Shown here piece after piece: positions 16,413-44,078 of a stretch of DNA of 64,000 nucleotides (its first letter is position 1; each line of letters begins with the position of its first letter). The translations under genes and the position numbers were made by a program. Under the pieces are notes generated by a model. The model had not been told where the DNA came from. It saw only the letters and a program-made list of their open reading frames with translations, and searched no databases. The DNA is from Thermoplasmata archaeon. GTDB taxonomy: Archaea; Thermoplasmatota; Thermoplasmata; Lutacidiplasmatales; UBA184. Location of the stretch: positions 17,290 to 81,289 of the forward strand of contig JAWOKS010000027.1 of NCBI GenBank assembly GCA_033854115.1. Direction: 5' to 3'.

Positions 16413-16455
16413 AGCGCCCGAGCCGGCAAGACACGGGATTGCGGAGAATCGAACG

Positions 16456-18622: not shown

Positions 18623-18709
18623 GGTGCGCTACCGCTTGATCTTCGACGGGGTCGCCATCGGCGCGACGACGGATTGACGGCCGGTCGAATCACCCTGCGG
18701 GACGTGACG

Positions 18710-31685: not shown

Positions 31686-31834
31686 GATCGAGGTTGCGCA
31701 CGAGAACGGCCCCGTCGTCCAACCCTTTCCTCCGTTCTCCCCTTGTCCGAGCGGTCGTGCCCTCCCGACGTGCTCCAGGATCCCCACGGTTGTACGCCTC
31801 CCCCCACGCAGCCGGCTCGGCCCTCCGGGTGGTG

Positions 31835-31891
31835 GGGGGAGCCCCCCAGCGTGCGGGGGGAGCCCCCCAGCGTGCGGGGGGACCCCTCGAG
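31835..31891. repeat. tandem ~21-bp repeat (2.5 copies); each unit is a GGGGG-AGC-CCCCC hairpin
   Basis: gggggagccccccagcgtgc / ggggggagccccccagcgtgc / ggggggacccc read directly. Intergenic, between the BNR gene and the nhaP-like gene. Confidence 0.5.
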
Positions 31892-31955
31892 AGGGGGCGC
31901 CTTGGAACGGGAACTCTAAGGAGCCGGGGCCCTCGTCCCGTGAGCGGACGGCTCG

Positions 31956-33200
31956 ATGGTCGCGATCACGCCCCTCCTCGTGCTCCTCGTCGTCGCGGCC
32001 CTCATCGTCCTCATCGCGAAGCAGCTTCGGGTCCCGTACACCGTCGCCCTCCTCCTGCTCGGGCTCGGGATCGGGCTCGCCGGGTCCGTCGTGGGATTCA
32101 CCCCGCTCGAGTCGGCCGTGCGGGAGCTCCTGTCGCCGGGCCTCTTCTTCGACCTGATCCTGCCCCCCATCATCTTCGAGGCCGCCCTCCACGTGAAGTT
32201 CCCGCTCCTGCGGCGCCGGGCGGGGCTGATCCTCTCGCTCGCGTTCCTCGGTGTGATCTTCACGACCCTCTTCACCGGCACGCTCGTCGCCTACGTGACG
32301 GCGCTGCCGATCGCGGCCGCGTTCCTCCTCGCCGCGATCCTCTCCCCGACCGATCCGATCGCGATCGTCGACCTGTTCCGACGGCTGCGCGTCCCCGAGG
32401 AGCTCTCCACGATCGTGGAGAGCGAGGCGCTGCTCAACGATGCGGCGGGGGTCATCCTGTTCGTGGTCCTGCTCCAGCTCATTCGCACCGGCACGACGGA
32501 CCCGTTGTTCGCGGCCGGCCAGTTCGCCTTCCTCACCCTCGGCGGGGTCGCGATGGGGCTCGCGGTCGCGGGGCTCGTCTACCTTCTCCACCGCGAGCTC
32601 CATGACCCGGCCGTCGAGACCGCCCTCTCGGTCGTGACCGCGTACGGCGCGTTCCTCCTCGCACAGGCGATCGGGGCGTCCGGGATCATCGCGTGCGCGA
32701 TCGCCGGGGTCGCGGTCGGCAGCTACGTCGCCCCACGCGCGATGGACCCCGAGGTGCGCCACTCGCTCTTCGACTTCTGGAGCGTGATCGTCTACGTCGC
32801 GAACTCGCTGATCTTCCTCGCGATGGGGATCGTGATCGCGCACAGCCAGGTGCTCGCCTACCTCGGCCTCATCGCGGCGGTCGTCGTCGTGATGACCGTC
32901 GGGCGCGCCGCGTTCGTCTTCCTGCACCGTCCGCTCTCCGTCCGCGGCCGCACGCGTCTCCCGCCCTCCTGGTACCACATCATCGCGATCTCGGGGATCC
33001 GGGGAGCGATCCCGGTGGTCCTCGCGTTGTCGCTGCTCTCCACCTCGACCGGTCTCGGTTCGTCCTCGGTCGACGCGATCGTCGCGAGCGTCCTCGGCGT
33101 CGCGTTCGTCTCGATCGTCGCCGGGAACCTCGTCGCCGACTGGTACGTGAAGCGCGCCTTCCCCGGTCCGGCCGGCGGAACGCCGGGGGTCCCCCGCTAG
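31956..33200 (+). CDS. Na+/H+ antiporter, CPA1 (NhaP-type) family
   Basis: About 12 TM. Motifs LSPTDPIA and IVESEALLNDAAGVILF are typical of NhaP/NHE antiporters. Confidence 0.8.
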   Translation: MVAITPLLVLLVVAALIVLIAKQLRVPYTVALLLLGLGIGLAGSVVGFTPLESAVRELLSPGLFFDLILPPIIFEAALHVKFPLLRRRAGLILSLAFLGVIFTTLFTGTLVAYVTALPIAAAFLLAAILSPTDPIAIVDLFRRLRVPEELSTIVESEALLNDAAGVILFVVLLQLIRTGTTDPLFAAGQFAFLTLGGVAMGLAVAGLVYLLHRELHDPAVETALSVVTAYGAFLLAQAIGASGIIACAIAGVAVGSYVAPRAMDPEVRHSLFDFWSVIVYVANSLIFLAMGIVIAHSQVLAYLGLIAAVVVVMTVGRAAFVFLHRPLSVRGRTRLPPSWYHIIAISGIRGAIPVVLALSLLSTSTGLGSSSVDAIVASVLGVAFVSIVAGNLVADWYVKRAFPGPAGGTPGVPR

Positions 33201-34219
33201 GGCCGGACGACCGTCCGAAAGCCCTCGCCGCGCCGCAGGCGGTCGGCGGCCGACGCGATTTCGCCGAGCGGCACGTGCGCCGTCACGACCGGCCCGAGCT
33301 GGAGGCGGCCCGAGCGGACGAGCTCCACCACCCGGGGGTAGTCGGACGGGCGGCAACCGAGGGAGCCGATCACCGAGTACTCGAGGAACATGACGCGGTG
33401 GGCGGGAAGCACGGCGGGAGCCGAGCTGTACCCGACAAGGCAGAGCCGCCCGCCGCGTCGCAGCGCGGCGAACCCGAGCGCGATCGTCGTGGGGTGGCCC
33501 ACCACCTCGAGCGCGACGTCGGCGCCGTCGCCCCACAGGCGACGGATCTCCTTCGCCGGGTCCTCGACCTGGCCGGGGTTCAGCGTCGCCCGGGCCCCGA
33601 GCTTCCTCGCGACCTCGAGCTTCGCCTCGTTGAGATCGAGCGCGACCACGTCGGCCCCGGCCGCGACCGCGACCTGGACGACGTTGATCCCGACGCCCCC
33701 GCAGCCGACGACGACGACCCGCTCCCCCGGCCGGACCTGGGCGCGGCGGACGACCGCGTGGTAGGGGGTGGTGAGCGCATCGGCGATGACGCAGCCGTCG
33801 ATCGGGTCGATCCCGGCCGGCAGCGGGACGAGGTCCCGCGCCGGGGCGACGACGAACTCCGCGAACCCGCCGTCGACGTGGTTCCCGAGCATCCGGAGCT
33901 TCGGGCAGATGTTCTCCCGGCCCGTGCGGCAGTACTCACATCGGCCGCAGGGCAGCACGGCGGGCACGAGCACGTGGTCGCCGACGGCGACCCCGTCCGC
34001 GCCGGGTCCGAGCGCCTCGACGCGACCGGAGATCTCGTGGCCGAGGATGAGGGGCGGGGGCTTCGCGGTCGGCACGCCGTGGTCGAGGTAGTGGAGGTCG
34101 GTGTGGCAGAACCCGCAGCCGAGGACCTCGAGGCGGGCCTCGCCCGGTCCCGGTACCGGGGTCGGCACCTCCCCGACCTCGAGCGGCTTGCCGGCCGCTC
34201 GCAGCACCGCCGCGCGCAC
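33197..34219 (-). CDS. Zn-dependent alcohol dehydrogenase (MDR superfamily)
   Basis: GCGFCHTDLHY (catalytic Zn), CGRCEYCRTGRENIC (structural Zn), Rossmann VVVGCGGVGINVVQ. GTG start at 34219, 2 nt after the upstream crotonase stop. Confidence 0.8.
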   Translation of the reverse strand: MRAAVLRAAGKPLEVGEVPTPVPGPGEARLEVLGCGFCHTDLHYLDHGVPTAKPPPLILGHEISGRVEALGPGADGVAVGDHVLVPAVLPCGRCEYCRTGRENICPKLRMLGNHVDGGFAEFVVAPARDLVPLPAGIDPIDGCVIADALTTPYHAVVRRAQVRPGERVVVVGCGGVGINVVQVAVAAGADVVALDLNEAKLEVARKLGARATLNPGQVEDPAKEIRRLWGDGADVALEVVGHPTTIALGFAALRRGGRLCLVGYSSAPAVLPAHRVMFLEYSVIGSLGCRPSDYPRVVELVRSGRLQLGPVVTAHVPLGEIASAADRLRRGEGFRTVVRP

Positions 34220-34221
34220 GG

Positions 34222-34998
34222 TCAGGCCCTCCCCGGGGCCGGCCAGACCGCCGGGCGCTTCTCGAGGAACGCCCGCAACCCCTCGTCCGCGTCGGGGAGC
34301 GCAAGGAGCCCGTCCACGTAGAGCCGCTCGGCGGCGACGAGCGGACCCCAGGGAAGGTCGGCCCGGATCCGCATCGCCCGCTTGAGGAGGACGAGCGTCT
34401 CGCGGCGGAAGCCCGAGAGCCGGTCGGTCGCCCCCCGGACCTCGGCATCCAGCGCCTCGTCCGCCGCGACGCGCGAGACGAGCCCGAGCGCGAGCGCCTG
34501 CTCGGCCCCGATCGTCTCGCCGAGCAGGAGGAGGTCCGCCGCCCGCTTCGGCCCGAGCCGCTCCGGGGCCGTGACGGCGGCGAGGGGCGGGAAGACGCCG
34601 AGGCGCACCTCGGGCTGCCCGAACGTGGCCGAACGCGCGGCGAAGGCGAGGTCGCACGCCTCGAGGAGCTCGAGCCCCCCGCCAAGGCACGGCCCCTCGA
34701 CCGCGGCGAGCGTCGGCGCGGGGACCTCGGCGATCGCACGGAGGACCTCGTGGAACGCCCGGAACATCGGCCGGACCCTCTCGGGAAGATGGTCCTCGAC
34801 CGCAAAGCCGGCGCTCCAGCGATGGTCCGCGCCCTCGAGGACGACAACGTGGGCGGAGCGCACGGGCTCGGTGCGGAGGGCGCGGGCGAGGTCGTCGAGG
34901 AGGGCCGTGTCGAAGACGTTGAGCGGAGGACGGGACCAGGTGACGGTCGCCCGCGCGCCCTCTCGGTCGACCTCGACCGAACCTCGGGCCGCCGGCAT
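34222..34998 (-). CDS. enoyl-CoA hydratase/isomerase (crotonase) family protein
   Basis: 258 aa. Crotonase oxyanion-hole segments WSAGFAVED and EGPCLGGGLELLEACDLAFAARSATFGQPE. Confidence 0.75.
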   Translation of the reverse strand: MPAARGSVEVDREGARATVTWSRPPLNVFDTALLDDLARALRTEPVRSAHVVVLEGADHRWSAGFAVEDHLPERVRPMFRAFHEVLRAIAEVPAPTLAAVEGPCLGGGLELLEACDLAFAARSATFGQPEVRLGVFPPLAAVTAPERLGPKRAADLLLLGETIGAEQALALGLVSRVAADEALDAEVRGATDRLSGFRRETLVLLKRAMRIRADLPWGPLVAAERLYVDGLLALPDADEGLRAFLEKRPAVWPAPGRA

Positions 34999-35006
34999 CG
35001 GTCGCC

Positions 35007-36242
35007 TCACTCCCAGAGGATCGACTCGACGAACGTCTCGAGCTGCAGGCGCACCTGCTCGTAGGCGGTCGACCGCTCCTCGAACTCGAGGTGGAGGTAC
35101 GGGACCTTCTGGCGGTCGAGCGCGCGTCGGTAGAGGACGACATCCTCGAGCGCGGGCTCGCAGAACTTCGCCGTGAGGAAGATCACCGCCTGGGCGCGGG
35201 ACGACTCCACCCGGCGGAGGATCGCCTCCCCCTTCGTGGTGGGGGCGGCGCGGACCCCGAGGTCGATCGGGCTCCGGACGTAGGCGGAGGCGAGCTCGAC
35301 GAGCGGGTCGCCCCCGGGGCCTACCCGGTCGTACCAGGCGTAGCTCTGGAGGAGGTCGTCCTCGACCACGGAGCAGCCGACCTGCTCGATGAGGTCGAGC
35401 AGGTCGAGCGTCGGTTGCTCGCAGAACGGTCCCACGAGGAGCACTCGGATCGCGTCGCGCCTCTTCGCGGGGCGGCGGGCGACCTCGGCGAGGGCACGCT
35501 CGACGAGCGGGACGTGGACCTCCCGCGGGAGGAGCCCGCCGAGGCGGCGGAGGAGGTAGGCCTCGAGGAACGTGAGCTGCTCGGGCTTCTCCCGGCGGAC
35601 CGTCGCGAGCTCGGCGAGGAGACGGCGCTGGGTGTCGAAGAGGCCCAGGGAGGCCGCGAGCCGCTCCGGGCGGTACGGCGCTCCGCCCGCGCGCTCGATC
35701 TTCGCGCTGAGCCGCCGGTACTCGGCCGTCAGGAACGGGACGGTCGCTGGCGAGCGGAAGTTCTGCGGCAGGTGCAGCATGTGGGTCACGGTGCCGGGGA
35801 GCTGGCGCGCCACGATCCCCTCGAGGTTGCGGCTCACGTCGCAGATGTAGGGGAAGACGAGGGCCCGGAACGGGGCGAGGCGGCCGGTGAGCGCGAGCTC
35901 GAGGGTCGACTTGCTGATCGAGCAGAGGAACGAGCCGAGCGCGGCGTCGGCGTGGCTGATCTCGACGCTCTCGCCTCCCCCGTGGAGGGCGACCGGGAGG
36001 AGCCCCTGGGCGTGGACGAGCTCGTGAGGTGTATAGACCGGGAAGCAGCCGACCGCGCCGCGCCCCCCGCGGGTCCACGCCCGCACGGTGGGATAGGTCG
36101 GGTCGGCGATCACCTCGCGCGCGAGCGCGGTGGCCGCCTCGAGCGACGGGGCGCGGCCGAACTCGGAGAGGTCGTCCGTGAGCTCGAGCGCGGGCGGGGC
36201 GTCCGTCCCGTCGATCGCCACGAGGCCCGAGGTTGCCGCCAT
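35007..36242 (-). CDS. 2-hydroxyacyl-CoA dehydratase / benzoyl-CoA reductase family subunit (HgdB/BcrB-like)
   Basis: 411 aa. CFPVYTPHELVHAQGLLP, FPYICDVSRN, LLVGPFCEQPTLDLLDLIEQVGCSVV and IFLTAKFCEP are typical of the HgdAB/BcrBC fold with its Cys ligands. Confidence 0.75.
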   Translation of the reverse strand: MAATSGLVAIDGTDAPPALELTDDLSEFGRAPSLEAATALAREVIADPTYPTVRAWTRGGRGAVGCFPVYTPHELVHAQGLLPVALHGGGESVEISHADAALGSFLCSISKSTLELALTGRLAPFRALVFPYICDVSRNLEGIVARQLPGTVTHMLHLPQNFRSPATVPFLTAEYRRLSAKIERAGGAPYRPERLAASLGLFDTQRRLLAELATVRREKPEQLTFLEAYLLRRLGGLLPREVHVPLVERALAEVARRPAKRRDAIRVLLVGPFCEQPTLDLLDLIEQVGCSVVEDDLLQSYAWYDRVGPGGDPLVELASAYVRSPIDLGVRAAPTTKGEAILRRVESSRAQAVIFLTAKFCEPALEDVVLYRRALDRQKVPYLHLEFEERSTAYEQVRLQLETFVESILWE

Positions 36243-36245
36243 CGT

Positions 36246-37064
36246 TCACCCGGGAGCGGCCGCGAGCGGGGTCGGGGCGGAGCCGAGCTTCGCGAGGCGC
36301 AGGTGGCCGAGGAGCGCCGCGCCGACCGCGGCGGCGTGGTGGGCCTCAGGGTCGGCGTGGACCGGCACGCCGGCGACCTTCTCGAGCGCGCGGACCATCG
36401 CCTCGCTGCGGACGAGCCCCCCGACGAGCGCGACCTCGGGCTCGATCCCCACGTAGCGCATCAGGATGAACGCGCGCTGCGCGAGCGAGAGGAAGACGCC
36501 CATGAGGATGTCCGGGAGCGGTACCTCCTCGGCGACGCTGTTGATGATCTCGGTCTCCGCGAGCACGGCGCAGACGCTCGAGATGAGGCGGGGCTTCGAC
36601 GAGGCGAGCGCGCGGCCGGCCATCTCCTCGAGCGGGATCTGGAGGTACTTCGCGCACCGGTCGACGAAGCGGCCCGCACCGGCCGCGCACTTCTCGTTCA
36701 TCTTGAACCGGACGACGCGGCCGGTCTCGCTCACGGAGACCGCGCGGGACGACTGGCTCCCGATGTCGACCACGTGCCGGGTCTTCGGACGGAGGAGGAC
36801 CGCCCCCCGCGCGGACGCCGTGATATCGCTCACCTGGAGGTGGCGGTCGGGGAACGCGTAGCGGGCGGCCCCTGTGGTGCAGAGGTAGTCGATCTCGCCC
36901 GGGACGACGTTCGCCTCCTCGGCGAGCCGCTCGAGCACGCGGCGCCCGGCGTCGACCGGGTTGCCCCGCGTCGGCACGAGCGCGCTCGCGAGCACCGTGC
37001 GACCGTCCTCGAGGAGGACCCCCTTCGTCGAGCCCGCCCCGAGGTCGAGGCCGCAGGTGATCAC
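36246..37064 (-). CDS. CoA-substrate-specific enzyme activase (BadF/BadG/BcrA/BcrD/HgdC ATPase), copy 1
   Basis: VITCGLDLGAGSTKGVLLED (ASKHA phosphate-1) and FKMNEKCAAGAGRFVD (cluster-Cys motif). GTGA overlap with the upstream activase. Confidence 0.8.
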   Translation of the reverse strand: MITCGLDLGAGSTKGVLLEDGRTVLASALVPTRGNPVDAGRRVLERLAEEANVVPGEIDYLCTTGAARYAFPDRHLQVSDITASARGAVLLRPKTRHVVDIGSQSSRAVSVSETGRVVRFKMNEKCAAGAGRFVDRCAKYLQIPLEEMAGRALASSKPRLISSVCAVLAETEIINSVAEEVPLPDILMGVFLSLAQRAFILMRYVGIEPEVALVGGLVRSEAMVRALEKVAGVPVHADPEAHHAAAVGAALLGHLRLAKLGSAPTPLAAAPG

Positions 37065-37849
37065 GGCGCTGCCCCCCCGCTCCGCTCCTGGCCGTAGAGC
37101 GCGGCCCCGATCGCGCCGAGGTACTGGGAGAGCGGGCTCACGTTGACCGGGAGACCGAGCCGCCGGTCGAGCGCCCGGACGACCCCCTCGTTCCGCGAGA
37201 CGCCCCCCGTGAACGTGACCTCGGGCTCGATCCCGACGCGCTGGAGGAGCGAGAACGAGCGGTTGACGATGCTCGCGTAGAGCCCGGCGAGGATGTCCCG
37301 CGGCTCCTTGCCGCGGGCCACGTAGGAGCTCACCTCCGATTCGGCGAAGACCGTGCATGTGTTGGTGACGCGGACCGGGTGACGGGCCCCCGCGGCGAGC
37401 GGGCCGATCTCGGAGACGTCGTAGCCGAGCGCCCCCGCGCAGACGTCGAGGAAGCGGCCGGTCCCCGCAGCGCACTTGTCGTTCATCGCGAAGTCGACGA
37501 CCTCGCCCCGCTCGTTGGTCCGGATCGCCTTTGTGTCCTGGCCCCCGATGTCGAGGACGAGGCGGGTCGACGGGTAGAGGAAGTGAGCGCCCTTCGCGTG
37601 GCAGCCGATCTCGGTCACCGTAAACTGGCCGAACGTGACCTTGAACCGGCCGTAGCCGGTCCCCGTGACGACGCCGACCTCGCCCCGGTCCCGCCCCGCG
37701 TCCGCGAGCGCCTGGGCGAGCGCGCGCTCCGCGTCCTTCACGAGCTCGACCCCGACCGGGGCCAGCGACTTCCCCACGAGGCGGTCCCCTTCGAGGAGCG
37801 CGCATTTCGCCGTCGTCGAGCCGATGTCGACGCCGGCGACGAGCGTCAC
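37061..37849 (-). CDS. CoA-substrate-specific enzyme activase (BadF/BadG/BcrA/BcrD/HgdC ATPase), copy 2 (distinct paralog)
   Basis: VTLVAGVDIGSTTAKCALLEGD and FAMNDKCAAGTGRFLD. GTGA overlap with the upstream HgdA-like gene. Confidence 0.8.
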   Translation of the reverse strand: MTLVAGVDIGSTTAKCALLEGDRLVGKSLAPVGVELVKDAERALAQALADAGRDRGEVGVVTGTGYGRFKVTFGQFTVTEIGCHAKGAHFLYPSTRLVLDIGGQDTKAIRTNERGEVVDFAMNDKCAAGTGRFLDVCAGALGYDVSEIGPLAAGARHPVRVTNTCTVFAESEVSSYVARGKEPRDILAGLYASIVNRSFSLLQRVGIEPEVTFTGGVSRNEGVVRALDRRLGLPVNVSPLSQYLGAIGAALYGQERSGGAAP

Positions 37850-39126
37850 GCCGCCACCGTCCCCGCGGGGCCGGCCCCCTTGCGCCGTTCGAGGGACTCG
37901 AAGAAGGCGTCCATCCGGTTCTTGATCTGGGCGGGGGCGAAGTAGCGGGGATCCTCGTGGTCCGACTCGAGGTAGAGGGTCGGCACCCCGAGCTCGTGGA
38001 TCAGCCAGTCGCGGAGGTCGCCCTGGCCCGCGGTGAACGACCGGCACGACTTGATGCCGTGGATGAGCACCGCGTCCGCCTCGAACTCCCGGACATACTT
38101 CGCGAGCAGCTTCCGGCGGAGCGGCCAGGCGAGGTTGACGTAGGCCCCGAGCGAGTACTCGGCGATGCTCTCGAGGGGCCGAGCCGGGTCGTGCCGGTAG
38201 CCCTGGTCGAACAGGCCACCGACCTTCGGGTAGGTCGCGGCGACCGAGACCGCGCCCCACGTCCGGAAGAAGTCCCAGAACGTCCGGTAGCTCGGGTACG
38301 GCGGAACGCCCTCGACGACCAGACGGTACTTCTCCTCCGGCACCGGGTAGGCCCCGGAGCGGACGCGCTCCTCGACCTCGGCGTTGACCGCGGCGTAGAA
38401 CTGCGCGGCCTCCTCCGTGCCGCGGAGGACGTTGATCGGGAACATGTAGAAGACCGCCTCGAAGTACGCCTCGATCGGGGACGGCCGGCGGCGCCCCGCG
38501 GTGAGGTAATGCGCCCATCCCTCCTCGGCCCGACGCGACCGCTCGAGGGTCCGGCGGAGCTCGTTGCGGTCGAGCGAGCGGCCGGTGGTGCGCTCGAGGA
38601 ACGCGATGAACTCCTCGAGCTGGGCGACCACGTAGGTGAGGTCTTCCGAGGACGGGGTCTCGTCCCGGAGGTACGGGACGTCCAGCACGAAGAGCGGGAC
38701 GCCGAACTTCTCGGCGAGCGCCTCCCACCACTTCACGTAGACATAGCAGCCCGAGAAGCTGCAGACGAGAAGATCGGGGGGAGGGATACGGCCGAACGGG
38801 GTCTGGCCGCCGACCTCCTGCAGCCCGAGGTCGTTCTTGACGTAGCCGCAGACGTCGAGCCCGTAACCCTGGGCTTCGGCCCGGACGATGTTGGGGAGGG
38901 ACGCGTGCTTGATCGCGCAGTTGAGCGCGACGATCTCGGGGAAGACGACCTCGTAGCCGAACGCCCGGACGATCTCCGTGAGGTTGCCCCCGACCAGCAT
39001 GTAGGCGACCGGTCGCTTCGGCCCGCCGGCCGTGGCAAGGTCCGTGTAGTAGGTCTCGACCATCCGTCGCTGGAGCTCGCGCGCGTTCGCGAGGAACGCG
39101 GTCCCGTCCGGTCCGGTCGAACCCAT
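37846..39126 (-). CDS. 2-hydroxyacyl-CoA dehydratase / benzoyl-CoA reductase family subunit (HgdA/BcrC-like)
   Basis: 426 aa. VAYMLVGGNLTEIVRAFGYEVVFPE, GLDVCGYVKND, LLVCSFSGCYVYVKWWE and HGIKSCRSFTAGQ are Cys-containing motifs of the HgdA family. ATG at 39126 is preceded by GGGGGCGGGG. Confidence 0.75.
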   Translation of the reverse strand: MGSTGPDGTAFLANARELQRRMVETYYTDLATAGGPKRPVAYMLVGGNLTEIVRAFGYEVVFPEIVALNCAIKHASLPNIVRAEAQGYGLDVCGYVKNDLGLQEVGGQTPFGRIPPPDLLVCSFSGCYVYVKWWEALAEKFGVPLFVLDVPYLRDETPSSEDLTYVVAQLEEFIAFLERTTGRSLDRNELRRTLERSRRAEEGWAHYLTAGRRRPSPIEAYFEAVFYMFPINVLRGTEEAAQFYAAVNAEVEERVRSGAYPVPEEKYRLVVEGVPPYPSYRTFWDFFRTWGAVSVAATYPKVGGLFDQGYRHDPARPLESIAEYSLGAYVNLAWPLRRKLLAKYVREFEADAVLIHGIKSCRSFTAGQGDLRDWLIHELGVPTLYLESDHEDPRYFAPAQIKNRMDAFFESLERRKGAGPAGTVAA

Positions 39127-39143
39127 CGGTCGGACCCCGCCCC

Positions 39144-40268
39144 CTACGTCGCGTGCGACGCGCGCTCCCGCTCTCCGCCGAGCGGGGAGCCGCATCGCCC
39201 GCAGTAGCGGAACTTCTCGGCGAGCCCGGTCTCCCCGCAGCTGCCGCAAGAGCGCGTCGGGGGGCCGTGGAGGTAGTTCCCGTTCCCCTCGCGGGCGATC
39301 CGCTGGCGGAGCTCCGCGACCCGCGCGGGGCGCTTGTCGACGAACGCGTGCATCCCCTCGTACGGCTCGGCGGTGGCGAAGTGCAGGGCGAGCCACTCCT
39401 GGGCGTGGCCGATCGTCTGGTTCCAGGCGAGCTCCTTCCAGAAGTTCGTCTGGGCCTTCGTGTACCGCAGGCACTCGGGGAACATGCCGAGGAGGCGCTG
39501 GGCGAGCTCGTCGACGGCTTCGTCGAGCTTCCCGAGGTCGAGCCGATAGCCGCGCTCCTCCTTGCGGGCCCAGCCGATCTCCTCGTCCGACGGCGAGGCG
39601 ACCCATTCGCCGTTCCGGGTGACGGACGGGGCGACCGAGGTCACGAGGCCCCACGCTTGGGCCTGCGCGGCCGGGATCCGCTCGTTCAGGAGAAGCATCG
39701 AGCGCGCCCGCCGGTCCCCGACCGCGAGGGGCAGCCACTGGGTGGCCCCGCCGCTCGCGACCGAGCCGACGCCGACGCCGACCTGCCCGAGGTAGACGTG
39801 GGAGGCCGCGACCGAAAGGTCGCAAGCGAGGTGGAGCTCGTTCCCTCCGCCGACCGCGATCCCGTTGAGGCGCGCGATCACGGGCTTGCCGCAGCGCAAG
39901 AGCGACTCGACGGCGTCGCGGAAGACCGCCATGTACTTCCAGTAGTCGTGCGGGCGCCGGACGAACCGGCCGGCGTACTCCTTGACGTCGCCCCCGGTGC
40001 AGAACGCCCGGGAGCCGCTACCGGTGAGCACGATCACGCCGACCCGGTCGTCGATCGCGGCGGCGTTCACCGCGCGGGCGAGCTCGTGCAGGGTGAGCGT
40101 GCTGTAGGCGTTCAACGCCTCGGGACGATTGAGCGTGACGCGCCCCACGCCGTCCTCGCGCTCGTAGAGGATCTCGCGGAACGGGGCACCCGTCGTGGTC
40201 GCAAGGAGGGGGTCCGCCGGAGAAGGGGCAGAGGGGGCCGGGGTCGGAGGATGGGTTCGCGCGCGCAC
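39144..40268 (-). CDS. long (374 aa) crotonase-family protein, MenB/BadI/Oah-like, with a C-terminal zinc ribbon
   Basis: Crotonase core (GVIVLTGSGSRAFCTGGDVKEY ... NGIAVGGGNELHLACDL) plus ~120 aa C-terminal extension ending CGSCG...CGRCG. First gene of the cluster. Confidence 0.7.
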   Translation of the reverse strand: MRARTHPPTPAPSAPSPADPLLATTTGAPFREILYEREDGVGRVTLNRPEALNAYSTLTLHELARAVNAAAIDDRVGVIVLTGSGSRAFCTGGDVKEYAGRFVRRPHDYWKYMAVFRDAVESLLRCGKPVIARLNGIAVGGGNELHLACDLSVAASHVYLGQVGVGVGSVASGGATQWLPLAVGDRRARSMLLLNERIPAAQAQAWGLVTSVAPSVTRNGEWVASPSDEEIGWARKEERGYRLDLGKLDEAVDELAQRLLGMFPECLRYTKAQTNFWKELAWNQTIGHAQEWLALHFATAEPYEGMHAFVDKRPARVAELRQRIAREGNGNYLHGPPTRSCGSCGETGLAEKFRYCGRCGSPLGGERERASHAT

Positions 40269-40645
40269 GGACGCCTCGGGCCACCATCAGGGCCGTAGGG
40301 CAAGGGGGTTCTCCCTTACCGGTAGGGGCCCCGGGGCGGACCCGGGTCGCCGGTCGCGCGAATGGAACGGGCTGCGCCAGGTCGATCGCCGAGGGAACCC
40401 TCCGGATCGGCCCATCCCGGTTCCTCGGAAGGCGCGAGGATGGGGCCGCGACCCCGAGACCCACCTCCACTGCCAACCAGGTCCCCGCGGCTCCCAAGGA
40501 CGGGGGCCGGGTCCCTCGGTCCAGGCGCCGCCCTGCCCGTACCGGTGAGGGTGCGCGCGAGCCCTGCGGGACGCGGAGCGAACTCCCGGGCCCGGGGGTT
40601 CCGCATCGAAAAATCACTTGAACCCGAACGACCGTCGCGACGTCC

Positions 40646-41482
40646 GTGCCCGTACGCGAGCGAATCGAGGGGCCGGTCCTCGTGGTGACCATCGATCGGC
40701 CGGAGGCGAGGAACGCGATCGACCCGGAGACCCATGCACGGTTGCTCCGCGCGTGGCGGCGTCTCCGGGACGACGAGCGGCTCCGGGTCGGGGTCCTCAC
40801 GGGGGCCGGCACCCTCGCGTTCTGCGCCGGGATCGACCTGAAGCGGCTCGAGGACTTCTATGCGGAAGCCTATCCCGGGGCCCGGCGCGAGCGGTTCGGC
40901 CGGGAGCCGGGCCTCGGCGGCCTCACCCGGAACTTCGACCCGGGTAAGCCGGTGATCGCGGCAGTCAACGGCTACTGCCTCGGGCTCGGGCTCGAGCTCG
41001 CGCTCGCCTGCGACCTGCGGCTCGCGAGCCCGAACGCGACCTTCGGGCTCCCCGAGGTCCGGTGGGGGATCATCCCGGGACAGGGCGGGACGCAGCGGCT
41101 CGCGCGCGCGATCCCGGCCAATCTCGCCCTCGAGATGATCCTCACCGGGGGCCCGATCTCCGCCGAGAGGGCGGTCGCGATCGGCCTCGTCAACCGGCTC
41201 GTTCCCTCGGCCGCGCTCGTGCCCGAGGCCGTCGCCCTCGGGCGGACGATCGCCCAGTTCCCCGCCCGGGCGGTGCGGCTCGCGCGCGAAGCGGTGCGAC
41301 GGGGCCTCGACCTCCCGCTCCCCGAGGCGCTCCAGTTCGAGCAGGACCTCGCCGACCCGCTCCGCTCGAGCCCGGAGAGCCAGGAGGCCCGTCGCGGGTT
41401 CGGAGGGCGGGACCGTAGGGCGTCCCCACCTCCCTCGCCCCGTTCGGGGTCGAGACCGCGACGGCGCCGTCGGGCGCGATGA
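40646..41482 (+). CDS. enoyl-CoA hydratase/isomerase (crotonase) family protein, divergent from the cluster
   Basis: VGVLTGAGTLAFCAGIDLK and VNGYCLGLGLELALACDLRLASPNATFGLPEVRWGIIPG. GTG start. Confidence 0.75.
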   Translation: MPVRERIEGPVLVVTIDRPEARNAIDPETHARLLRAWRRLRDDERLRVGVLTGAGTLAFCAGIDLKRLEDFYAEAYPGARRERFGREPGLGGLTRNFDPGKPVIAAVNGYCLGLGLELALACDLRLASPNATFGLPEVRWGIIPGQGGTQRLARAIPANLALEMILTGGPISAERAVAIGLVNRLVPSAALVPEAVALGRTIAQFPARAVRLAREAVRRGLDLPLPEALQFEQDLADPLRSSPESQEARRGFGGRDRRASPPPSPRSGSRPRRRRRAR

Positions 41483-41498: not shown

Positions 41499-42335
41499 TC
41501 AGCGCTCGCCGAGGTGCGGGGCGAGCATCTTGCTCTCCGCCCGACGCAGGAGCTCGGACGCGGTCGACCGGCTGACGCCGAGAATGCGGGAGAGCTCCTT
41601 CAAGTTCGTCCGGCGCGGGAACGCGTAGAAGCCGAGGCGGTAGGCGGTCTCGAGCGCCGTCGCCTGGCGGGCTGTGAGGGTCTGCGGCGGAACGAACCGG
41701 CGCATCCGGAGGATCGGGGGCCGCGGGTCGTCCCCCTGGCCGAGGGACCGCACGACCGACTTGAGCGCGCCCGGCGCCCGCGGGAGCACGAGCGTCCAGC
41801 GGTCCGGCACCTCGCTGCCATCGGCCGGCAGGAACTGGCAGGTCGCGCAGATCACGCCCCCCTCGAAGATCCGACGGCAGGACTCGGGCATCCGGGTCAC
41901 GGTGCGGACGAACCGCCGCGAGGGCGACAGCACCATGACGGTGAGCTCGAGGAGATCGTCCCGGTGGCGGAGGTAGCGCTCGGCCGCCGCGAGGTCCCCC
42001 GGGTCGCCGGTAAGCTCCGCGACCTGGAGAAGGCGGGAGGCGTCCACCCCCATCGGACGGCAGACGTTGAGGCGGACCCGGAGGTTCCAGCGCTCGGTGA
42101 CGTCCCGGCTCCAGTGGCCGGCGGTCCCGGCCGGTACGTCGACCTCGACGAGCGGCAGCTGGACGAGGTTCGGGGCGATCCGGGGCGAGAACGACTCGGT
42201 GGACGGACGGCGGGAGGGTCCCGAACCCACGGACCCCGACGACGGCCGACGCCGGCTCGCGCCCTTCATCCCGTCCGGCCCCCCCGGGAGAGCGGGCGGC
42301 CCGAGATAAGCCCTGACCACGCCGCTCTCGCCCAT
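41499..42335 (-). CDS. archaeal HTH_10 (bacterio-opsin-activator-type) transcriptional regulator
   Basis: C-terminal TARQATALETAYRLGFYAFPRRTNLKELSRILGVSRSTASELLRRAESKM matches the HTH_10 DNA-binding domain. The N-terminal boundary is uncertain: candidate Met starts at 42335, 42269 and 42053. Confidence 0.55.
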   Translation of the reverse strand: MGESGVVRAYLGPPALPGGPDGMKGASRRRPSSGSVGSGPSRRPSTESFSPRIAPNLVQLPLVEVDVPAGTAGHWSRDVTERWNLRVRLNVCRPMGVDASRLLQVAELTGDPGDLAAAERYLRHRDDLLELTVMVLSPSRRFVRTVTRMPESCRRIFEGGVICATCQFLPADGSEVPDRWTLVLPRAPGALKSVVRSLGQGDDPRPPILRMRRFVPPQTLTARQATALETAYRLGFYAFPRRTNLKELSRILGVSRSTASELLRRAESKMLAPHLGER

Positions 42336-42388: not shown

Positions 42389-42937
42389 TCAGACGACCGT
42401 CATCGTGCCCGACATGTAGCCCGGAACGCCCATCGGAGCCCCCGAGTAGCCGTCCGACCCGCACGGGTCGACGCAGACCCAGGTGTACACCCCGGGCGAG
42501 GCGAGGTCGACCGTGAACGTGACGGTGCTCATGCCCGGGCTGACCACGTTGAGGTTCAGGTCCGGGATCGTGAACGTGTGCGCGATGTTCGTGCTCGGGA
42601 CGTCCGACATCGGCGTGCCGTTGACGGACTCCGTCCCGCCGACCGTGCCGGTCACGTTGCAGGGGCAGCCCGACCAGGCCACCGGCGCATCGAAGTCGAG
42701 GATCGTGAAGAGGACCACGCCGTGCGGAACGGTGAAGTTCGCGGGCGAGTACTGGGGCTGGCCGTTCACCGGGTTCACCTGCACGGTGAGGTACATGTGC
42801 GCGGGCCCGGACGACGCGGGCGAGGGCGGGGCGTTCGCGTTCGCGCTGGCCGTGACCCCGGTCCAGACGAGCAGCAGCACGACCACGCTGAACGCGAGCC
42901 CGGCGGCCACGAGATTGTAGTACTCCCTGTCCTTCAC
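42389..42937 (-). CDS. membrane-anchored cupredoxin/COX2-like domain protein
   Basis: N-terminal TM (LVAAGLAFSVVVLLLVW), then a domain with IAHTFTIPD ... GVYTWVCVDPCGSDGYSGAPMGVPGYMSGTMTVV, paralogous to the C-terminus of the 19382..21418 protein. Confidence 0.55.
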   Translation of the reverse strand: MKDREYYNLVAAGLAFSVVVLLLVWTGVTASANANAPPSPASSGPAHMYLTVQVNPVNGQPQYSPANFTVPHGVVLFTILDFDAPVAWSGCPCNVTGTVGGTESVNGTPMSDVPSTNIAHTFTIPDLNLNVVSPGMSTVTFTVDLASPGVYTWVCVDPCGSDGYSGAPMGVPGYMSGTMTVV

Positions 42938-43060
42938 GTTCTCTCCCTACGTCCGAGCACGGACGAGGAGACCGGACCCCACCACGACCTCACCGATCTC
43001 CTCCGGTCCGCGCACCGGTCCCCACGCTCGCGGTGGGAGAAGGCCGTACTGCCTTACCGG

Positions 43061-44074
43061 TTAGGTTCCCGGGCCGCCCCCTCCTCGGGAGGCGCCGGAC
43101 GACGCCGTCGAGGTGCCGCCGACCCGAGCGGACGGCAGCTCGGGGCCGACCACGTCGGCGAGCGCGGCGATCAGGTCGGGGTCGGCGTTCGGCGAGGGGA
43201 CCCGCTCGAGCTCGATCCCGCGCCGGGCCGCCCGCTCCTTGAGCTCGATGTCGAGGTCGTAGAGGACCTCGAGGTTGTCCGCCGCGAAGCCGTAGGCGGC
43301 GAGCAGCACGCCCCCCGGGGTCGCCCGTGGGAGCTCGTCCACCACGGACTCGACCGACGGGCCGAGCCACGCCTCGCCGGTGCGCCCGACGCTCTGGTAC
43401 GCGGCGATCGACCGAGCCGGCCCGAGCCGAGCGAGGATCGCCTCGCGGGTCCTCTCGAGGGATCGCACGTAGGGGTCGCCGCTCGCGCTCGCGCGGACGG
43501 GAAGGCTGTGCGCGGAGAAGAGGAGGACCGGGTCCGCGCCGGTCCGCCCACGGAGCCTCGCGCGGGCCGAGCGGATGCGTTCCGTCCAACCCTCGACCCA
43601 ACGAGGTTCGAGGTGCCAGCCCGTCACGTAGCGTACGGGGCCGATGTGGCCCCGGGCCCGCAGGCGGGTCCGGACCTCCGCGAGGTACGTTCCGACCCCC
43701 CAACGGGAGTAGTACGGGGTGAGGGGAACGATGGAGAGTCGTTCCGCCCCGGCCTCCTCGAGGGCATCGAGCGCTTCATCGAGGCTCGGGGAGCCGACCA
43801 CGGCACCGTACCGGCACGGCCTCGTCTGGCCCGCCGCCCGGTAATGGGCCTCGAGCCGTTCGGCCTGCGCCTCGGAGATCCTCCCGAGCGGCGACCCTCC
43901 CCCGATGCGGGCGTAGCGGGCCCGGAACTCGTCGACGAGCTCGGGAGGGGTAGGACGGCCCCGGCGGATCCCCTCGAGGAACCGGCCGACCTCGTCGAGC
44001 GTCGCGGGGGCGCCGAGCGCGCAGAGCAGCACGCCGTCCGGCATGCGACGCCTCACGCCCCCGGGCCCGGGCAC
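43061..44074 (-). CDS. hemH: ferrochelatase
   Basis: LLFSAHSLP (the conserved His region) and LSIVPLTPYYSRW. Alternative start at 44044. Confidence 0.8.
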   Translation of the reverse strand: MPGPGGVRRRMPDGVLLCALGAPATLDEVGRFLEGIRRGRPTPPELVDEFRARYARIGGGSPLGRISEAQAERLEAHYRAAGQTRPCRYGAVVGSPSLDEALDALEEAGAERLSIVPLTPYYSRWGVGTYLAEVRTRLRARGHIGPVRYVTGWHLEPRWVEGWTERIRSARARLRGRTGADPVLLFSAHSLPVRASASGDPYVRSLERTREAILARLGPARSIAAYQSVGRTGEAWLGPSVESVVDELPRATPGGVLLAAYGFAADNLEVLYDLDIELKERAARRGIELERVPSPNADPDLIAALADVVGPELPSARVGGTSTASSGASRGGGGPGT

Positions 44075-44078
44075 GCGC

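What the first reader, a model, noticed from the sequence alone, without database searches (positions are those of the whole stretch)
33197..41482. Translationally coupled cluster for a four-subunit ATP-dependent radical dehydratase/reductase (HgdA/B-like pair plus two different activase ATPases), flanked by three crotonases and a Zn-ADH: gene content of a class I benzoyl-CoA reductase-type pathway in an archaeon
Seven genes run on the minus strand from 40268 to 33197 with 0-17 nt gaps or GTGA overlaps. In order: a 374-aa MenB/BadI/Oah-like crotonase with a C-terminal Zn ribbon; an HgdA/BcrC-like subunit; two non-identical BcrA/BcrD/HgdC-type activase ATPases; an HgdB/BcrB-like subunit; a 258-aa crotonase; and an MDR Zn-ADH. 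A third crotonase lies divergently at 40646. Simple 2-hydroxyacyl-CoA dehydratases use one homodimeric activator. Two distinct adjacent activase paralogs plus two catalytic-type subunits is the architecture of class I benzoyl-CoA reductases (BcrCBAD/BadDEFG). The neighbouring hydratase (dch-like), alcohol dehydrogenase (had-like) and long hydrolase-type crotonase (oah/bamA-like length) are the enzymes that process the dienoyl-CoA product. However, both activases are short (262 and 272 aa), unlike the large BcrA-type subunit, so this may instead be a distinct uncharacterised member of the family acting on another (ali)cyclic or 2-hydroxyacyl-CoA. No ferredoxin or CoA ligase is visible in the window. 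A Bat-type HTH_10 regulator (41499..42335) sits next door.
Basis: partly seen in the sequence, partly recalled or inferred. Interest (0 to 1): 0.8.

Follow-up and report, generated by a model that had tools for sequence, protein, structure and literature searches.

The report
Archaeal ATP-dependent benzoyl-CoA reductase gene cluster
An uncultured Thermoplasmata archaeon carries a compact operon for the ATP-driven enzyme that breaks the aromaticity of benzoyl-CoA, plus the three enzymes that open the ring; the gene assignment holds up, but similar clusters have been reported in archaeal metagenome genomes since 2019 and none from this branch has been tested biochemically.

Summary
Seven tightly packed minus-strand genes (33197-40268), a divergent crotonase (40646-41482) and an HTH_10 regulator are intact. 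The same gene calls are on record for a near-identical NCBI contig. The host is a Thermoplasmata archaeon.

The four central genes encode a class I benzoyl-CoA reductase of the Thauera/MBR type, not a 2-hydroxyacyl-CoA dehydratase. Their best solved relatives are the four subunits of 3-methylbenzoyl-CoA reductase MbdONQP. The beta subunit is 39% identical to T. aromatica BcrB. It groups with BcrB and MbdO, excluding HadB and BzdO, in 195 of 200 bootstraps.

The flanking genes best match Dch and Had. The long crotonase is not a canonical Oah. It belongs to a conserved subfamily with a zinc ribbon that fills the Oah position in many phyla.

I also found a conserved palindrome upstream of the operon, and a B-A-D-C gene order specific to this lineage.

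No ferredoxin or CoA ligase lies in the window. All scores are below NCBIfam equivalog cut-offs, as are those of proven MBR.

Novelty is modest: new member of a known kind.

The parts
33197..34219 (-). Had-like Zn-dependent MDR dehydrogenase (340 aa). [quoted passage not shown]
   Evidence: Best NCBIfam hit is TIGR03201 dearomat_had at 259.5 bits (cut-off 338.65); the next family scores 188. [quoted passage not shown] It is 55% identical to the Had-like gene that sits beside a canonical Oah in Bacteroidota locus L045.
34222..34998 (-). Dch-like crotonase (258 aa). Predicted cyclohexa-1,5-diene-1-carbonyl-CoA hydratase.
   Evidence: Best NCBIfam hit is TIGR03189 dienoyl_CoA_hyt at 161 bits (cut-off 292.5); the next family scores 121. 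It keeps the same position next to had in most related loci.
35007..36242 (-). BcrC/MbdN-like gamma subunit (411 aa) of the reductase.
   Evidence: TIGR02263 benz_CoA_red_C 243 bits, against HadC 173 and BzdN 85. PDB: MbdN 258 bits, HadC 149, BzdN 93. It is 39% identical to MbdN and 33.5% to T. aromatica BcrC. C107, C134 and C361 are invariant across all five aligned references. C274 and C290 are shared only with BcrC and MbdN. The six-Cys pattern of the BzdN double cubane is absent (residue numbering).
36246..37064 (-). Delta-type (BcrD/MbdP-like) ATPase subunit (272 aa).
   Evidence: PF01869. TIGR02261 benz_CoA_red_D 149 bits. PDB best hit MbdP 182 bits, against MbdQ 167. The motifs around C126 and C165 align with conserved Cys of MbdP.
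37061..37849 (-). Alpha-type (BcrA/MbdQ-like) ATPase subunit (262 aa), without the N-terminal extension of Thauera BcrA.
   Evidence: PF01869. TIGR02259 benz_CoA_red_A 188 bits, on the C-terminal part of that profile only. PDB best hit MbdQ (269 aa) 277 bits, against HgdC 219 and MbdP 170. It is 38% identical to the neighbouring ATPase. C126 and C165 are present.
37846..39126 (-). BcrB/MbdO-like beta (substrate-binding, catalytic) subunit (426 aa).
   Evidence: TIGR02260 benz_CoA_red_B 338 bits, against HadB 165 and BzdO 110. PDB: MbdO 218, HadB 143, BzdO 111. It is 39% identical to T. aromatica BcrB (318 bits). It groups with BcrB and MbdO in 195 of 200 bootstraps. E64, C93, Y95, C127 and C361 align with BzdO E65, C95, Y97, C128 and C380 (roles from PMC11971306).
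39144..40268 (-). Crotonase of the MenB/BadI/Oah group (374 aa) with a C-terminal zinc ribbon. Predicted ring-opening hydrolase in the Oah position. First gene of the operon.
   Evidence: TIGR03200 oah 194 bits (cut-off 464), BadI 152, MenB 151. C341-x2-C344-x11-C356-x2-C359 is conserved in about 35 loci from many phyla. The tail gives sub-threshold hits to zinc-ribbon Pfam families only. In loci L035 and L045, which have no zinc-ribbon crotonase, a canonical Oah (486 and 551 bits) lies in the same cluster.
40313..40328 (.). Palindromic element CCCCTACCGGTAAGGG (followed by AGAAC), centred about 52 nt upstream of the GTG start of the first operon gene. Candidate operator or promoter element.
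   Evidence: Read directly from the sequence. The 12-mer with up to 1 mismatch occurs 4 times in the window against 0.81 expected. It sits at a fixed offset upstream of the oah-like gene in nearly all B-A-D-C-type Thermoplasmata loci.
40536..40551 (.). Second copy of the element (CCCTCACCGGTACGGG on the minus strand), about 100 nt upstream of the divergent crotonase gene.
   Evidence: A related AACCGGTNAGG motif lies at the matching position in L004, L006, L007 and L084.
40646..41482 (+). Third, generic crotonase/enoyl-CoA hydratase (278 aa as called; relatives are 248 aa), transcribed divergently. Role unknown, possibly in the lower beta-oxidation-like pathway.
   Evidence: ECH_1 187 bits. 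Best NCBIfam hits are generic, EchA19 and DpgD, all below cut-off. It is conserved in the same divergent position in B-A-D-C-type loci at 58-75% identity.
41499..42335 (-). HTH_10 transcription regulator. Candidate pathway regulator. The true start may be near 42230.
   Evidence: HTH_10 at residues 220-271 and no other domain. Homologues of 63-70% identity lie next to the cluster in the closest relatives, and ones of 33-38% identity next to it in more distant Thermoplasmata. Relatives are mostly 212-257 aa. In the 243-aa numbering, C118, C128 and C131 are invariant and C57 nearly so. The model has pLDDT 79 and shows two beta-alpha-beta-beta-alpha-beta units plus the HTH. It has no PDB fold match at E <= 0.001.
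43052..43065 (.). Third copy of the element (CCTAACCGGTAAGG), about 120 nt upstream of the 182-aa gene (42389-42937) that precedes the HTH_10 gene. Possible autoregulation site; membership uncertain.
   Evidence: This site is not consistently found near the regulator gene in relatives.

Best explanation
The cluster encodes an ATP-dependent class I aryl-CoA reductase of the Thauera/MBR type, most likely a benzoyl-CoA reductase, together with the enzymes that open the reduced ring.

Inferred mechanism, by homology to the studied enzymes:
1. The alpha-like and delta-like ATPases (37061-37849 and 36246-37064) form a heterodimer that holds a bridging [4Fe-4S] cluster on C126 and C165 of each subunit.
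2. This dimer accepts an electron from a reduced ferredoxin encoded elsewhere. It uses ATP hydrolysis to push the electron to very low potential.
3. The electron passes through the Fe-S cluster of the gamma subunit (35007-36242) to the active-site [4Fe-4S] of the beta subunit (37846-39126; C93, C127, C361, with E64 as the likely proton donor).
4. There benzoyl-CoA is reduced to cyclohexa-1,5-diene-1-carbonyl-CoA.
5. [quoted passage not shown]
6. The seven genes are probably one transcript. It is probably controlled by the adjacent HTH_10 regulator through a conserved palindrome upstream of the first gene.

Shown here: gene content, family placement, conserved ligand residues, synteny and the conserved DNA element. 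Inferred: substrate, products, electron donor, co-transcription and regulator binding.
For: 1. Every gene's best curated family is the matching benzoyl-CoA pathway enzyme: Had, Dch, BcrC, BcrD, BcrA, BcrB, Oah.
2. The best solved relatives of all four reductase subunits are the four subunits of 3-methylbenzoyl-CoA reductase, one to one: MbdO 218 bits, MbdN 258, MbdQ 277, MbdP 182. All are ahead of HadB/C/I, HgdC and BzdO/N.
3. Calibration: proven MbdO/N/Q/P score 220/231/221/119 bits on the Thauera Bcr B/C/A/D models. The window proteins score 338/243/188/149, so they are about as close to canonical Bcr as MBR is.
4. The beta subunit is 39% identical to T. aromatica BcrB and 33% to MbdO, while BcrB and MbdO share only 32%. 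HadB is 26% and BzdO 27%.
5. In NJ bootstraps, the environmental clade plus BcrB plus MbdO excludes HadB and BzdO in 195 of 200 replicates for the beta subunit and 143 of 200 for the gamma subunit.
6. The [4Fe-4S] ligands and the Glu and Tyr of the BzdO active site are conserved (roles). The bridging-cluster Cys are present in both ATPases.
7. The two ATPases are old paralogues, 38% identical.
8. Guilt by association across phyla: the same BcrB clade lies next to a canonical Oah (486 and 551 bits, cut-off 464) and a canonical Had (433 bits, cut-off 339) in Planctomycetota and Bacteroidota loci. In Heimdallarchaeota LC_3 it lies next to an AMP-forming CoA ligase, an AFOR and a ferredoxin. Dch, Had and Oah-type genes flank the core in many phyla.
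9. The module keeps together in Thermoplasmata while its flanks differ.
Against: - All seven scores are below the NCBIfam equivalog cut-offs. So are those of every environmental relative tested, at 310-415 bits against 486. NCBI names these proteins only '2-hydroxyacyl-CoA dehydratase family'.
- I found no report of a biochemically studied member of this environmental clade.
- The window holds no ferredoxin, aryl-CoA ligase, glutaryl-CoA dehydrogenase or other lower-pathway gene.
- The ring hydrolase is not a canonical Oah. It scores about equally on the Oah, BadI and MenB models in relatives.
- BzdO His131 is Tyr here and Phe in BcrB and MbdO.
- The conserved active-site residues are shared with HadB, so they do not separate reductase from dehydratase.
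- The trees are distance-based with few references. The gamma-subunit support is only 72%.
Confidence: 0.7

Rival explanations
1. The enzyme has the same architecture and mechanism, but its physiological substrate is not benzoyl-CoA. It could be a substituted benzoyl-CoA (methyl-, hydroxy-, amino- or halo-) or another aromatic or alicyclic acyl-CoA. The Dch-, Had- and zinc-ribbon-crotonase homologues would then be tuned to the corresponding ring intermediates.
For: All subunits and all three downstream enzymes fall below the equivalog cut-offs of the benzoyl-CoA-specific models. The gamma, alpha and delta subunits match the methylbenzoyl-CoA reductase subunits MbdN, MbdQ and MbdP best among solved structures. 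The ring hydrolase is a distinct subfamily. Residue 130 differs from BzdO His131.
Against: The beta subunit, which binds the substrate, is closer to T. aromatica BcrB (39%, 318 bits) than to MbdO (33%, 226 bits). Members of the same clade sit beside canonical Oah and Had, which act on the unsubstituted ring. Known BCR and MBR enzymes accept benzoyl-CoA as well as analogues (my own knowledge of the Thauera enzymes, not tested here).
Confidence: 0.2
2. It is a 2-hydroxyacyl-CoA dehydratase (Hgd/Had/Fld/Lcd type) with its activator, used in amino-acid fermentation. The crotonases and the ADH would handle the enoyl-CoA product.
For: Pfam places the two large subunits in HGD-D, '2-hydroxyglutaryl-CoA dehydratase, D-component'. 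NCBI names relatives '2-hydroxyacyl-CoA dehydratase'. The active-site Cys, Glu and Tyr are shared with HadB.
Against: HadB and HadC score far lower than the Bcr and Mbd subunits. HadB is excluded from the clade in 195 of 200 bootstraps. The window has two different ATPase subunits in the operon, whereas dehydratases use a single activator (the single-electron activator is described in PMC11971306, and its homodimeric state is my own knowledge). No 2-hydroxyacid CoA-transferase or 2-hydroxyacid dehydrogenase lies nearby. The neighbours best match Dch, Had and Oah.
Confidence: 0.04
3. The cluster is a recently transferred or decaying bacterial island with no role in this archaeon.
For: The family is spread patchily over many bacterial and archaeal phyla, which suggests horizontal transfer. 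No partner genes lie nearby.
Against: All ORFs are intact with coupled starts and stops. G+C (0.72-0.74) matches the flanks. The module is conserved, with protein identities of about 50-86%, in about 20 Thermoplasmata genomes. It comes with a lineage-specific gene order, an archaeal-type HTH_10 regulator and a conserved upstream element, so it has been kept under selection for a long time.
Confidence: 0.03

Closest known systems
3-methylbenzoyl-CoA reductase MbdONQP of Thauera chlorobenzoica (MBR; PDB 9g87, 9gai)
   Same: It has four different subunits. It is the best solved match for each window subunit, one to one (218, 258, 277 and 182 bits). Both ATPases are short (269 and 273 aa, against 262 and 272 aa here). 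The gamma subunit shares the same five Cys.
   Different: Identity is only 33-39%. The gene order differs (the name MbdONQP suggests O-N-Q-P, from my own knowledge; here it is B-A-D-C). The host is archaeal. MbdO carries insertions that the window protein lacks.
Benzoyl-CoA reductase BcrCBAD of Thauera aromatica K172, with Dch, Had and Oah
   Same: The beta subunit is the closest characterised relative (39% identity, 318 bits). T. aromatica BcrB nests inside the environmental clade in the best tree. The pathway layout is the same, with an MDR-type Had and a Dch-type hydratase. Relatives outside this Thermoplasmata lineage keep the C-B-A-D order.
   Different: The alpha subunit matches only the C-terminal part (positions 229-429 of 432) of the BcrA profile. 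The gene order is B-A-D-C. No adjacent ferredoxin gene is present. The ring hydrolase is a zinc-ribbon crotonase rather than a canonical Oah. Scores are below the equivalog cut-offs.
Bzd-type class I reductase BzdNOPQ of Aromatoleum sp. CIB (PDB 8s02)
   Same: Same superfamily and the same overall logic. The catalytic [4Fe-4S] ligands, the Glu and the Tyr are conserved (PMC11971306).
   Different: It is much more distant (111 and 93 bits; 24-27% identity). The gamma subunit lacks the six-Cys pattern of the BzdN [8Fe-9S] double cubane. BzdO His131 and Gln274 are not conserved.
(R)-2-hydroxyisocaproyl-CoA dehydratase HadBC with activator HadI (PDB 3o3m, 4eht)
   Same: Same fold family. It has three Cys plus Glu at the active-site cluster and an ASKHA-type activator with a bridging cluster.
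   Different: Similarity is lower (143 and 149 bits). It is excluded from the clade in 195 of 200 bootstraps. It uses a single activator and recycles one electron over many turnovers (PMC11971306). The window has two distinct ATPases fixed in the operon.
bcr clusters predicted in archaeal genomes assembled from metagenomes: Thermoplasmata and Bathyarchaeota (PMC6472368), Hermod-, Heimdall- and Lokiarchaeota (PMC8163825, bioRxiv 10.1101/763623) and 'Ca. Yaplasmales' (PMC9239135)
   Same: Same prediction from the same kind of gene content: bcrABCD with dch, had and oah. One South China Sea Thermoplasmatota locus (L024) is 56% identical in BcrB.
   Different: Those reports rest on KEGG-style annotation. 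In the passages I read, they do not describe the B-A-D-C order, the zinc-ribbon hydrolase or the upstream palindrome. L024 itself has the C-B-A-D order.

Membership tests
Class I benzoyl-CoA reductase, Thauera/MBR type | Four different subunits encoded together: two HGD-D-family subunits and two different BcrAD_BadFG ATPases | tested here: met
   Pfam PF06050 twice and PF01869 twice, in adjacent and overlapping genes. The two ATPases are 38% identical to each other.
Class I benzoyl-CoA reductase, Thauera/MBR type | The catalytic beta subunit groups with characterised BcrB and MbdO, excluding dehydratases and the Bzd type | tested here: met
   195 of 200 NJ bootstraps. Identity is 39% to BcrB, 33% to MbdO, 26% to HadB and 27% to BzdO.
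Class I benzoyl-CoA reductase, Thauera/MBR type | The gamma subunit groups with BcrC and MbdN | tested here: inconclusive
   Monophyly with BcrC plus MbdN in 143 of 200 bootstraps, and some distances were saturated. Pairwise scores favour it: 254 and 235 bits, against 165 for HadC and 106 for BzdN. The five-Cys pattern is shared only with BcrC and MbdN.
Class I benzoyl-CoA reductase, Thauera/MBR type | Active-site [4Fe-4S] with three Cys ligands, plus a conserved Glu and a Tyr that binds the thioester | tested here: met
   C93, C127, C361, E64 and Y95 align with BzdO C95, C128, C380, E65 and Y97 (roles from PMC11971306). These residues are also shared with HadB.
Class I benzoyl-CoA reductase, Thauera/MBR type | An alpha/delta ATPase heterodimer with two Cys per subunit for the bridging cluster | tested here: met
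   The best matches are to different Mbd subunits: MbdQ 277 bits against 170, and MbdP 182 against 167. C126 and C165 are present in both ATPases. The delta assignment rests on a small margin.
Class I benzoyl-CoA reductase, Thauera/MBR type | Score at or above the NCBIfam equivalog cut-offs for BcrA, BcrB, BcrC and BcrD | tested here: not met
   188/578, 338/487, 243/421 and 149/313 bits. Proven MbdQ/O/N/P also fail, at 221, 220, 231 and 119 bits. The cut-offs therefore define a narrower group than the enzyme class.
Class I benzoyl-CoA reductase, Thauera/MBR type | ATP-dependent two-electron reduction of benzoyl-CoA to the 1,5-dienoyl-CoA, with reduced ferredoxin as donor | not testable with these tools
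   This needs enzyme assays. No ferredoxin gene lies in the window. A ferredoxin lies next to the Heimdallarchaeota LC_3 homologue.
Bzd-type class I reductase | Six-Cys [8Fe-9S] double-cubane site in the N (gamma) subunit, and a best match to the BzdN and BzdO models | tested here: not met
   The extra BzdN Cys are absent. TIGR03190 and TIGR03191 score only 85 and 110 bits.
2-hydroxyacyl-CoA dehydratase (Hgd/Had/Fld/Lcd) | Catalytic subunits inside the dehydratase clade, with a single activator | tested here: not met
   HadB falls outside the clade. HadB and HadC score lower than the Bcr and Mbd subunits. Two distinct ATPases are encoded.
[quoted passage not shown] | Full-length match at or above 464 bits | tested here: not met
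   194 bits, with the best stretch covering only the N-terminal half of the profile. Canonical Oah proteins in L045 and L035 score 551 and 486 bits. The window protein belongs to a separate zinc-ribbon subfamily that fills the Oah position.
[quoted passage not shown] | Match at or above 338.65 bits | tested here: not met
   259.5 bits. It is the best family by 71 bits, and the best PDB hits are Had 7quy and 7qul. The canonical Had in L035 scores 433 bits.
Cyclohexa-1,5-diene-1-carbonyl-CoA hydratase (Dch, TIGR03189) | Match at or above 292.5 bits | tested here: not met
   161 bits. It is the best family by 40 bits. Homologues in related loci score 171-204 bits, also below the cut-off.
Bat-type regulators | GAF and PAS sensor domains followed by HTH_10 | tested here: not met
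   Only HTH_10 is detected. The model shows two beta-alpha-beta-beta-alpha-beta units and has no PDB match at E <= 0.001.

The most novel reading that the evidence does not exclude
In this Thermoplasmata lineage, and in Heimdallarchaeota, Acidobacteriota, Chloroflexota and other phyla, the canonical ring-opening hydrolase Oah has been replaced by an uncharacterised crotonase of the MenB/BadI/Oah group that carries a C-terminal four-Cys zinc ribbon. In Thermoplasmata the rearranged B-A-D-C operon would also be controlled by a Cys-rich HTH_10 regulator, possibly sensing metal or redox state, through a conserved CCTWACCGGTWAGG palindrome. If so, this is a distinct and widespread variant of the benzoyl-CoA pathway with a new ring-cleaving enzyme and a new archaeal regulatory circuit. 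It might also act on a substrate other than benzoyl-CoA.
Probability: 0.3. Interest if true: 0.55.

Novelty: new member of a known kind. Interest (0 to 1): 0.38.

Why it matters
ATP-dependent dearomatisation of benzoyl-CoA is the central step of anaerobic breakdown of aromatic compounds. [quoted passage not shown]

This cluster belongs to a very large, untested environmental branch of the Thauera/MBR-type enzyme. More than 550 loci in species-representative genomes from many uncultured phyla carry it. The closest Thermoplasmata relatives come from diverse metagenome-assembled genomes; isolate names such as SPRUCE hint at peat or soil, but I did not check the habitats.

If the enzyme is active, these archaea take part in turning over lignin- and pollutant-derived aromatics. 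The compact seven-gene operon would also be a convenient target for heterologous study of an archaeal class I reductase and of a new type of ring hydrolase.

As a discovery it is incremental. The same inference has been published for other archaeal genomes assembled from metagenomes.

Tried and rejected
- An exact-sequence look-up of the 1106/1118-aa neighbouring protein found nothing. One look-up failed on a coordinate slip caused by a 20-nt length difference between the window and the NCBI contig.
- Looking up the S8 peptidase gave only a 4.7-kb contig. I therefore annotated the window with my own GC3-based gene caller plus Pfam.
- tblastn of the beta subunit against plasmids, meant to fetch canonical named BcrB, returned only distant members of the dehydratase family at 25-28% identity. 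I took the reference sequences from the supplement of PMC11971306 instead.
- A paper search for the MbdONQP structure returned nothing relevant.
- The gamma-subunit tree could not be drawn because some distances were saturated.
- Rfam and tRNA scans found only tRNA-Gln, so the low-G+C stretch holds no rRNA.
- The PDB fold search with the regulator model gave no match at E <= 0.001, only weak ACT-domain-like hits.
- I considered and rejected four readings: a dehydratase; a Bzd-type reductase; a recent tandem duplication of the ATPases; and the idea that short ATPases argue against a BCR.

Full report
**Observation.**
The window has 64-75% G+C, so raw ORF lists are full of shadow frames.
- ADH 33197-34219 (340 aa)
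- crotonase 34222-34998 (258 aa)
- HGD-D subunit 35007-36242 (411 aa)
- ATPase 36246-37064 (272 aa)
- ATPase 37061-37849 (262 aa)
- HGD-D subunit 37846-39126 (426 aa)
- crotonase 39144-40268 (374 aa)
- on the plus strand, crotonase 40646-41482
- an HTH_10 gene at 41499-42335

Two junctions are 4-nt overlaps. The other gaps are 2, 3, 8 and 17 nt. A near-identical NCBI contig (GCA_037917035.1, JBAIWW010000007.1) carries the same gene calls. Pfam confirms every family.

**Host and surroundings.**
The window encodes TFIIB and aIF5B-type IF-2, and TruD and KaiC-like proteins. The closest loci elsewhere are all titled 'Thermoplasmata archaeon'. The G+C of the cluster matches its flanks. About 60 ORFs across the window were scanned, and none is a ferredoxin, an AMP-forming CoA ligase or an acyl-CoA dehydrogenase. 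In a relative with the same module the flanking genes are different. The nine-gene module therefore stays together as a unit.

**The reductase: curated families and solved structures.**
In NCBIfam each of the four central proteins hits the Thauera-type model best:

| Subunit | Bcr model (bits) | Alternatives (bits) |
|---|---|---|
| beta | BcrB 338 | HadB 165, BzdO 110 |
| gamma | BcrC 243 | HadC 173, BzdN 85 |
| ATPases | BcrA 188, BcrD 149 | - |

All are below the equivalog cut-offs. Among solved structures, the best match of each subunit is a different subunit of 3-methylbenzoyl-CoA reductase: MbdO 218, MbdN 258, MbdQ 277 and MbdP 182 bits. All are ahead of HadB/C/I, HgdC and BzdO/N.

**The reductase: calibration and phylogeny.**
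To judge the missed cut-offs I scored the Mbd subunits on the same models. They reach only 220 (B), 231 (C), 221 (A) and 119 (D) bits. The cut-offs therefore define a narrower group than the enzyme class, and the window proteins lie about as close to canonical Bcr as a proven enzyme does.

Reference sequences came from the supplement of PMC11971306. With them, the beta subunit is 39% identical to T. aromatica BcrB and 33% to MbdO, while those two share only 32%. HadB is 26% and BzdO 27%. In NJ trees the environmental clade, BcrB and MbdO form a group that excludes HadB and BzdO in 195 of 200 bootstraps. For the gamma subunit the figure is 143 of 200.

**The reductase: residues and ATPases.**
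The residues that hold and serve the catalytic [4Fe-4S] in BzdO are C95, C128, C380, E65 and Y97. They align with C93, C127, C361, E64 and Y95 here. These residues are also present in HadB, so they support family membership but not substrate.

The gamma subunit has the five Cys of BcrC and MbdN and lacks the six-Cys double-cubane pattern of BzdN.

The two ATPases are 38% identical to each other. Both keep the two Cys that align with conserved Cys of the Mbd ATPases and HgdC. That reservation is removed, because MbdQ and MbdP are 269 and 273 aa.

**Downstream enzymes.**
- The ADH hits Had best: 259.5 bits, with the next family at 188 and the cut-off at 339. Its top PDB hits are the two solved Had enzymes, by a narrow margin.
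- The 258-aa crotonase hits Dch best: 161 bits, with the next family at 121.
- The 374-aa crotonase hits Oah (194), BadI (152) and MenB (151), all far below cut-off.

The 374-aa crotonase ends in C341-x2-C344-x11-C356-x2-C359. That tail is conserved in about 35 related loci from Thermoplasmata, Heimdallarchaeota, Acidobacteriota, Chloroflexota, Gemmatimonadota and others. It gives only sub-threshold hits, all to zinc-ribbon families.

Comparing loci ties these genes together:
- Planctomycetota locus L035 has a BcrB of the same clade (53% identical), a canonical Oah (486 bits, cut-off 464) and a canonical Had (433 bits, cut-off 339).
- Bacteroidota locus L045 has a canonical Oah (551 bits) together with a Had of the window's type (55% identical).
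- Acidobacteria locus L029 has the window-type Had together with the zinc-ribbon crotonase.

The zinc-ribbon crotonase therefore fills the Oah position in otherwise equivalent clusters. This is the basis for predicting that it opens the ring.

**Distribution and gene order.**
A scan of one genome per species found more than 554 loci that encode a relative of the beta subunit. Thermoplasmata relatives are 69-84% identical. Heimdallarchaeota relatives are about 57%. Many uncultured bacterial phyla are 45-54%.

All relatives tested fall below the BcrB cut-off, at 310-415 bits. Outside the close Thermoplasmata group the core order is C-B-A-D, as in the name BcrCBAD. The close Thermoplasmata group has oah-B-A-D-C-dch-had, with the third crotonase divergent and an HTH_10 gene nearby. 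That group is monophyletic in 200 of 200 bootstraps and is sister to a Heimdall-type pair of loci. In Heimdallarchaeota LC_3 the core is preceded by an AMP-forming ligase, an AFOR and a ferredoxin.

**Regulation (new here).**
Aligning the divergent intergenic region of five relatives showed a conserved palindrome. In the window it reads CCCCTACCGGTAAGGG at 40313-40328, centred about 52 nt upstream of the first gene's start. A second copy lies at 40536-40551, towards the divergent crotonase. A third lies at 43052-43065, upstream of the 182-aa gene that precedes the regulator gene.

The element recurs at a fixed offset upstream of the oah-like gene in nearly all B-A-D-C-type loci.

The regulator's relatives are mostly 212-257 aa, so its true start may be near 42230. 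Three Cys are invariant and a fourth nearly so. The model (pLDDT 79) shows two beta-alpha-beta-beta-alpha-beta units before the HTH and has no PDB fold match at E <= 0.001. Binding of this protein to the palindrome is an inference.

**Caveats.**
No activity was tested. I found no report of a studied member of this environmental clade. The electron donor, the ligase and the lower pathway are not in the window. The trees are distance-based with few references. The substrate could be a substituted aryl-CoA.

**Comparison with the literature.**
Class I bcr genes together with dch, had and oah were reported from Thermoplasmata and Bathyarchaeota genomes assembled from metagenomes in 2019 (PMC6472368). 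Reports followed for Asgard archaea (PMC8163825 and bioRxiv 10.1101/763623) and for 'Ca. Yaplasmales' (PMC9239135). The structural framework for the enzyme class comes from PMC11971306.

**Verdict.**
The finding is a new, well-preserved member of a known kind. Its incremental novelties are the gene order, the zinc-ribbon hydrolase and the candidate operator.

Noticed in passing
window 40313-40328, 40536-40551, 43052-43065; L004-L023, L036 and L084 upstream of the oah-like gene: A conserved palindromic element (consensus about CCCTWACCGGTWAGGGAGAAC) lies at a fixed distance upstream of the operon in nearly all Thermoplasmata loci with the B-A-D-C order. The window has extra copies towards the divergent crotonase and upstream of the regulator's transcription unit.
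   Followed up: partly
window 39144-39300 (C-terminal 50 aa of the 374-aa crotonase); about 35 loci: The crotonase with a four-Cys zinc ribbon forms a widespread, unnamed subfamily. It replaces canonical Oah next to this BCR clade in many phyla. Planctomycetota and Bacteroidota loci keep a canonical Oah instead.
   Followed up: partly
window 41499-42335: In the HTH_10 regulator, three Cys are invariant and a fourth nearly so (C57, C118, C128, C131 in the 243-aa numbering). They sit in an N-terminal region made of two beta-alpha-beta-beta-alpha-beta units with no PDB match at E <= 0.001. This could be a metal or Fe-S sensor domain.
   Followed up: partly
window 42389-45733: Just beyond the regulator lie, in order, a membrane-anchored cupredoxin-like 182-aa protein (weak Pfam hit), ferrochelatase, CopD and a radical SAM protein. 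This haem- and copper-related set hints at a respiratory lifestyle.
   Followed up: no
window 11093-13078 (+) and 13061-14983 (-): Two convergent paralogous genes encode an adenylate/guanylate cyclase domain fused to TPR repeats. Their 3' ends overlap by 18 nt.
   Followed up: no
window 14983-19382: A 4.4-kb stretch has lower G+C (0.64-0.68) and no ORF with the high third-position G+C typical of this genome. The only weak Pfam hits there are an AAA_33-type kinase and a DUF6114 membrane protein with a zinc ribbon. It may be foreign DNA.
   Followed up: partly
window 46569-49889: A very large (about 1106 aa) protein whose only Pfam hit is a lactonase-type beta-propeller. Its exact sequence is not on record in the protein collection.
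   Followed up: no
window 29271-34127 against L001: The window and the NCBI contig JBAIWW010000007.1 differ by a 20-nt length change in this interval and by a few amino-acid substitutions (the delta-type ATPase is 99% identical). The window therefore comes from a closely related strain or another assembly.
   Followed up: no
L086 (Planctomycetota), locus coordinates 4475-12890 and 16909-20256: In this bacterial relative the had-oah-SDR-bcrCBAD cluster is preceded by a tyrosine phenol-lyase/tryptophanase-family gene. It lies about 4 kb from a cytochrome c oxidase operon, which fits the use of class I reductases by facultative anaerobes.
   Followed up: no
window 6259-6331: tRNA-Gln (anticodon TTG) is the only RNA gene found in the window by Rfam and ARAGORN.
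   Followed up: yes
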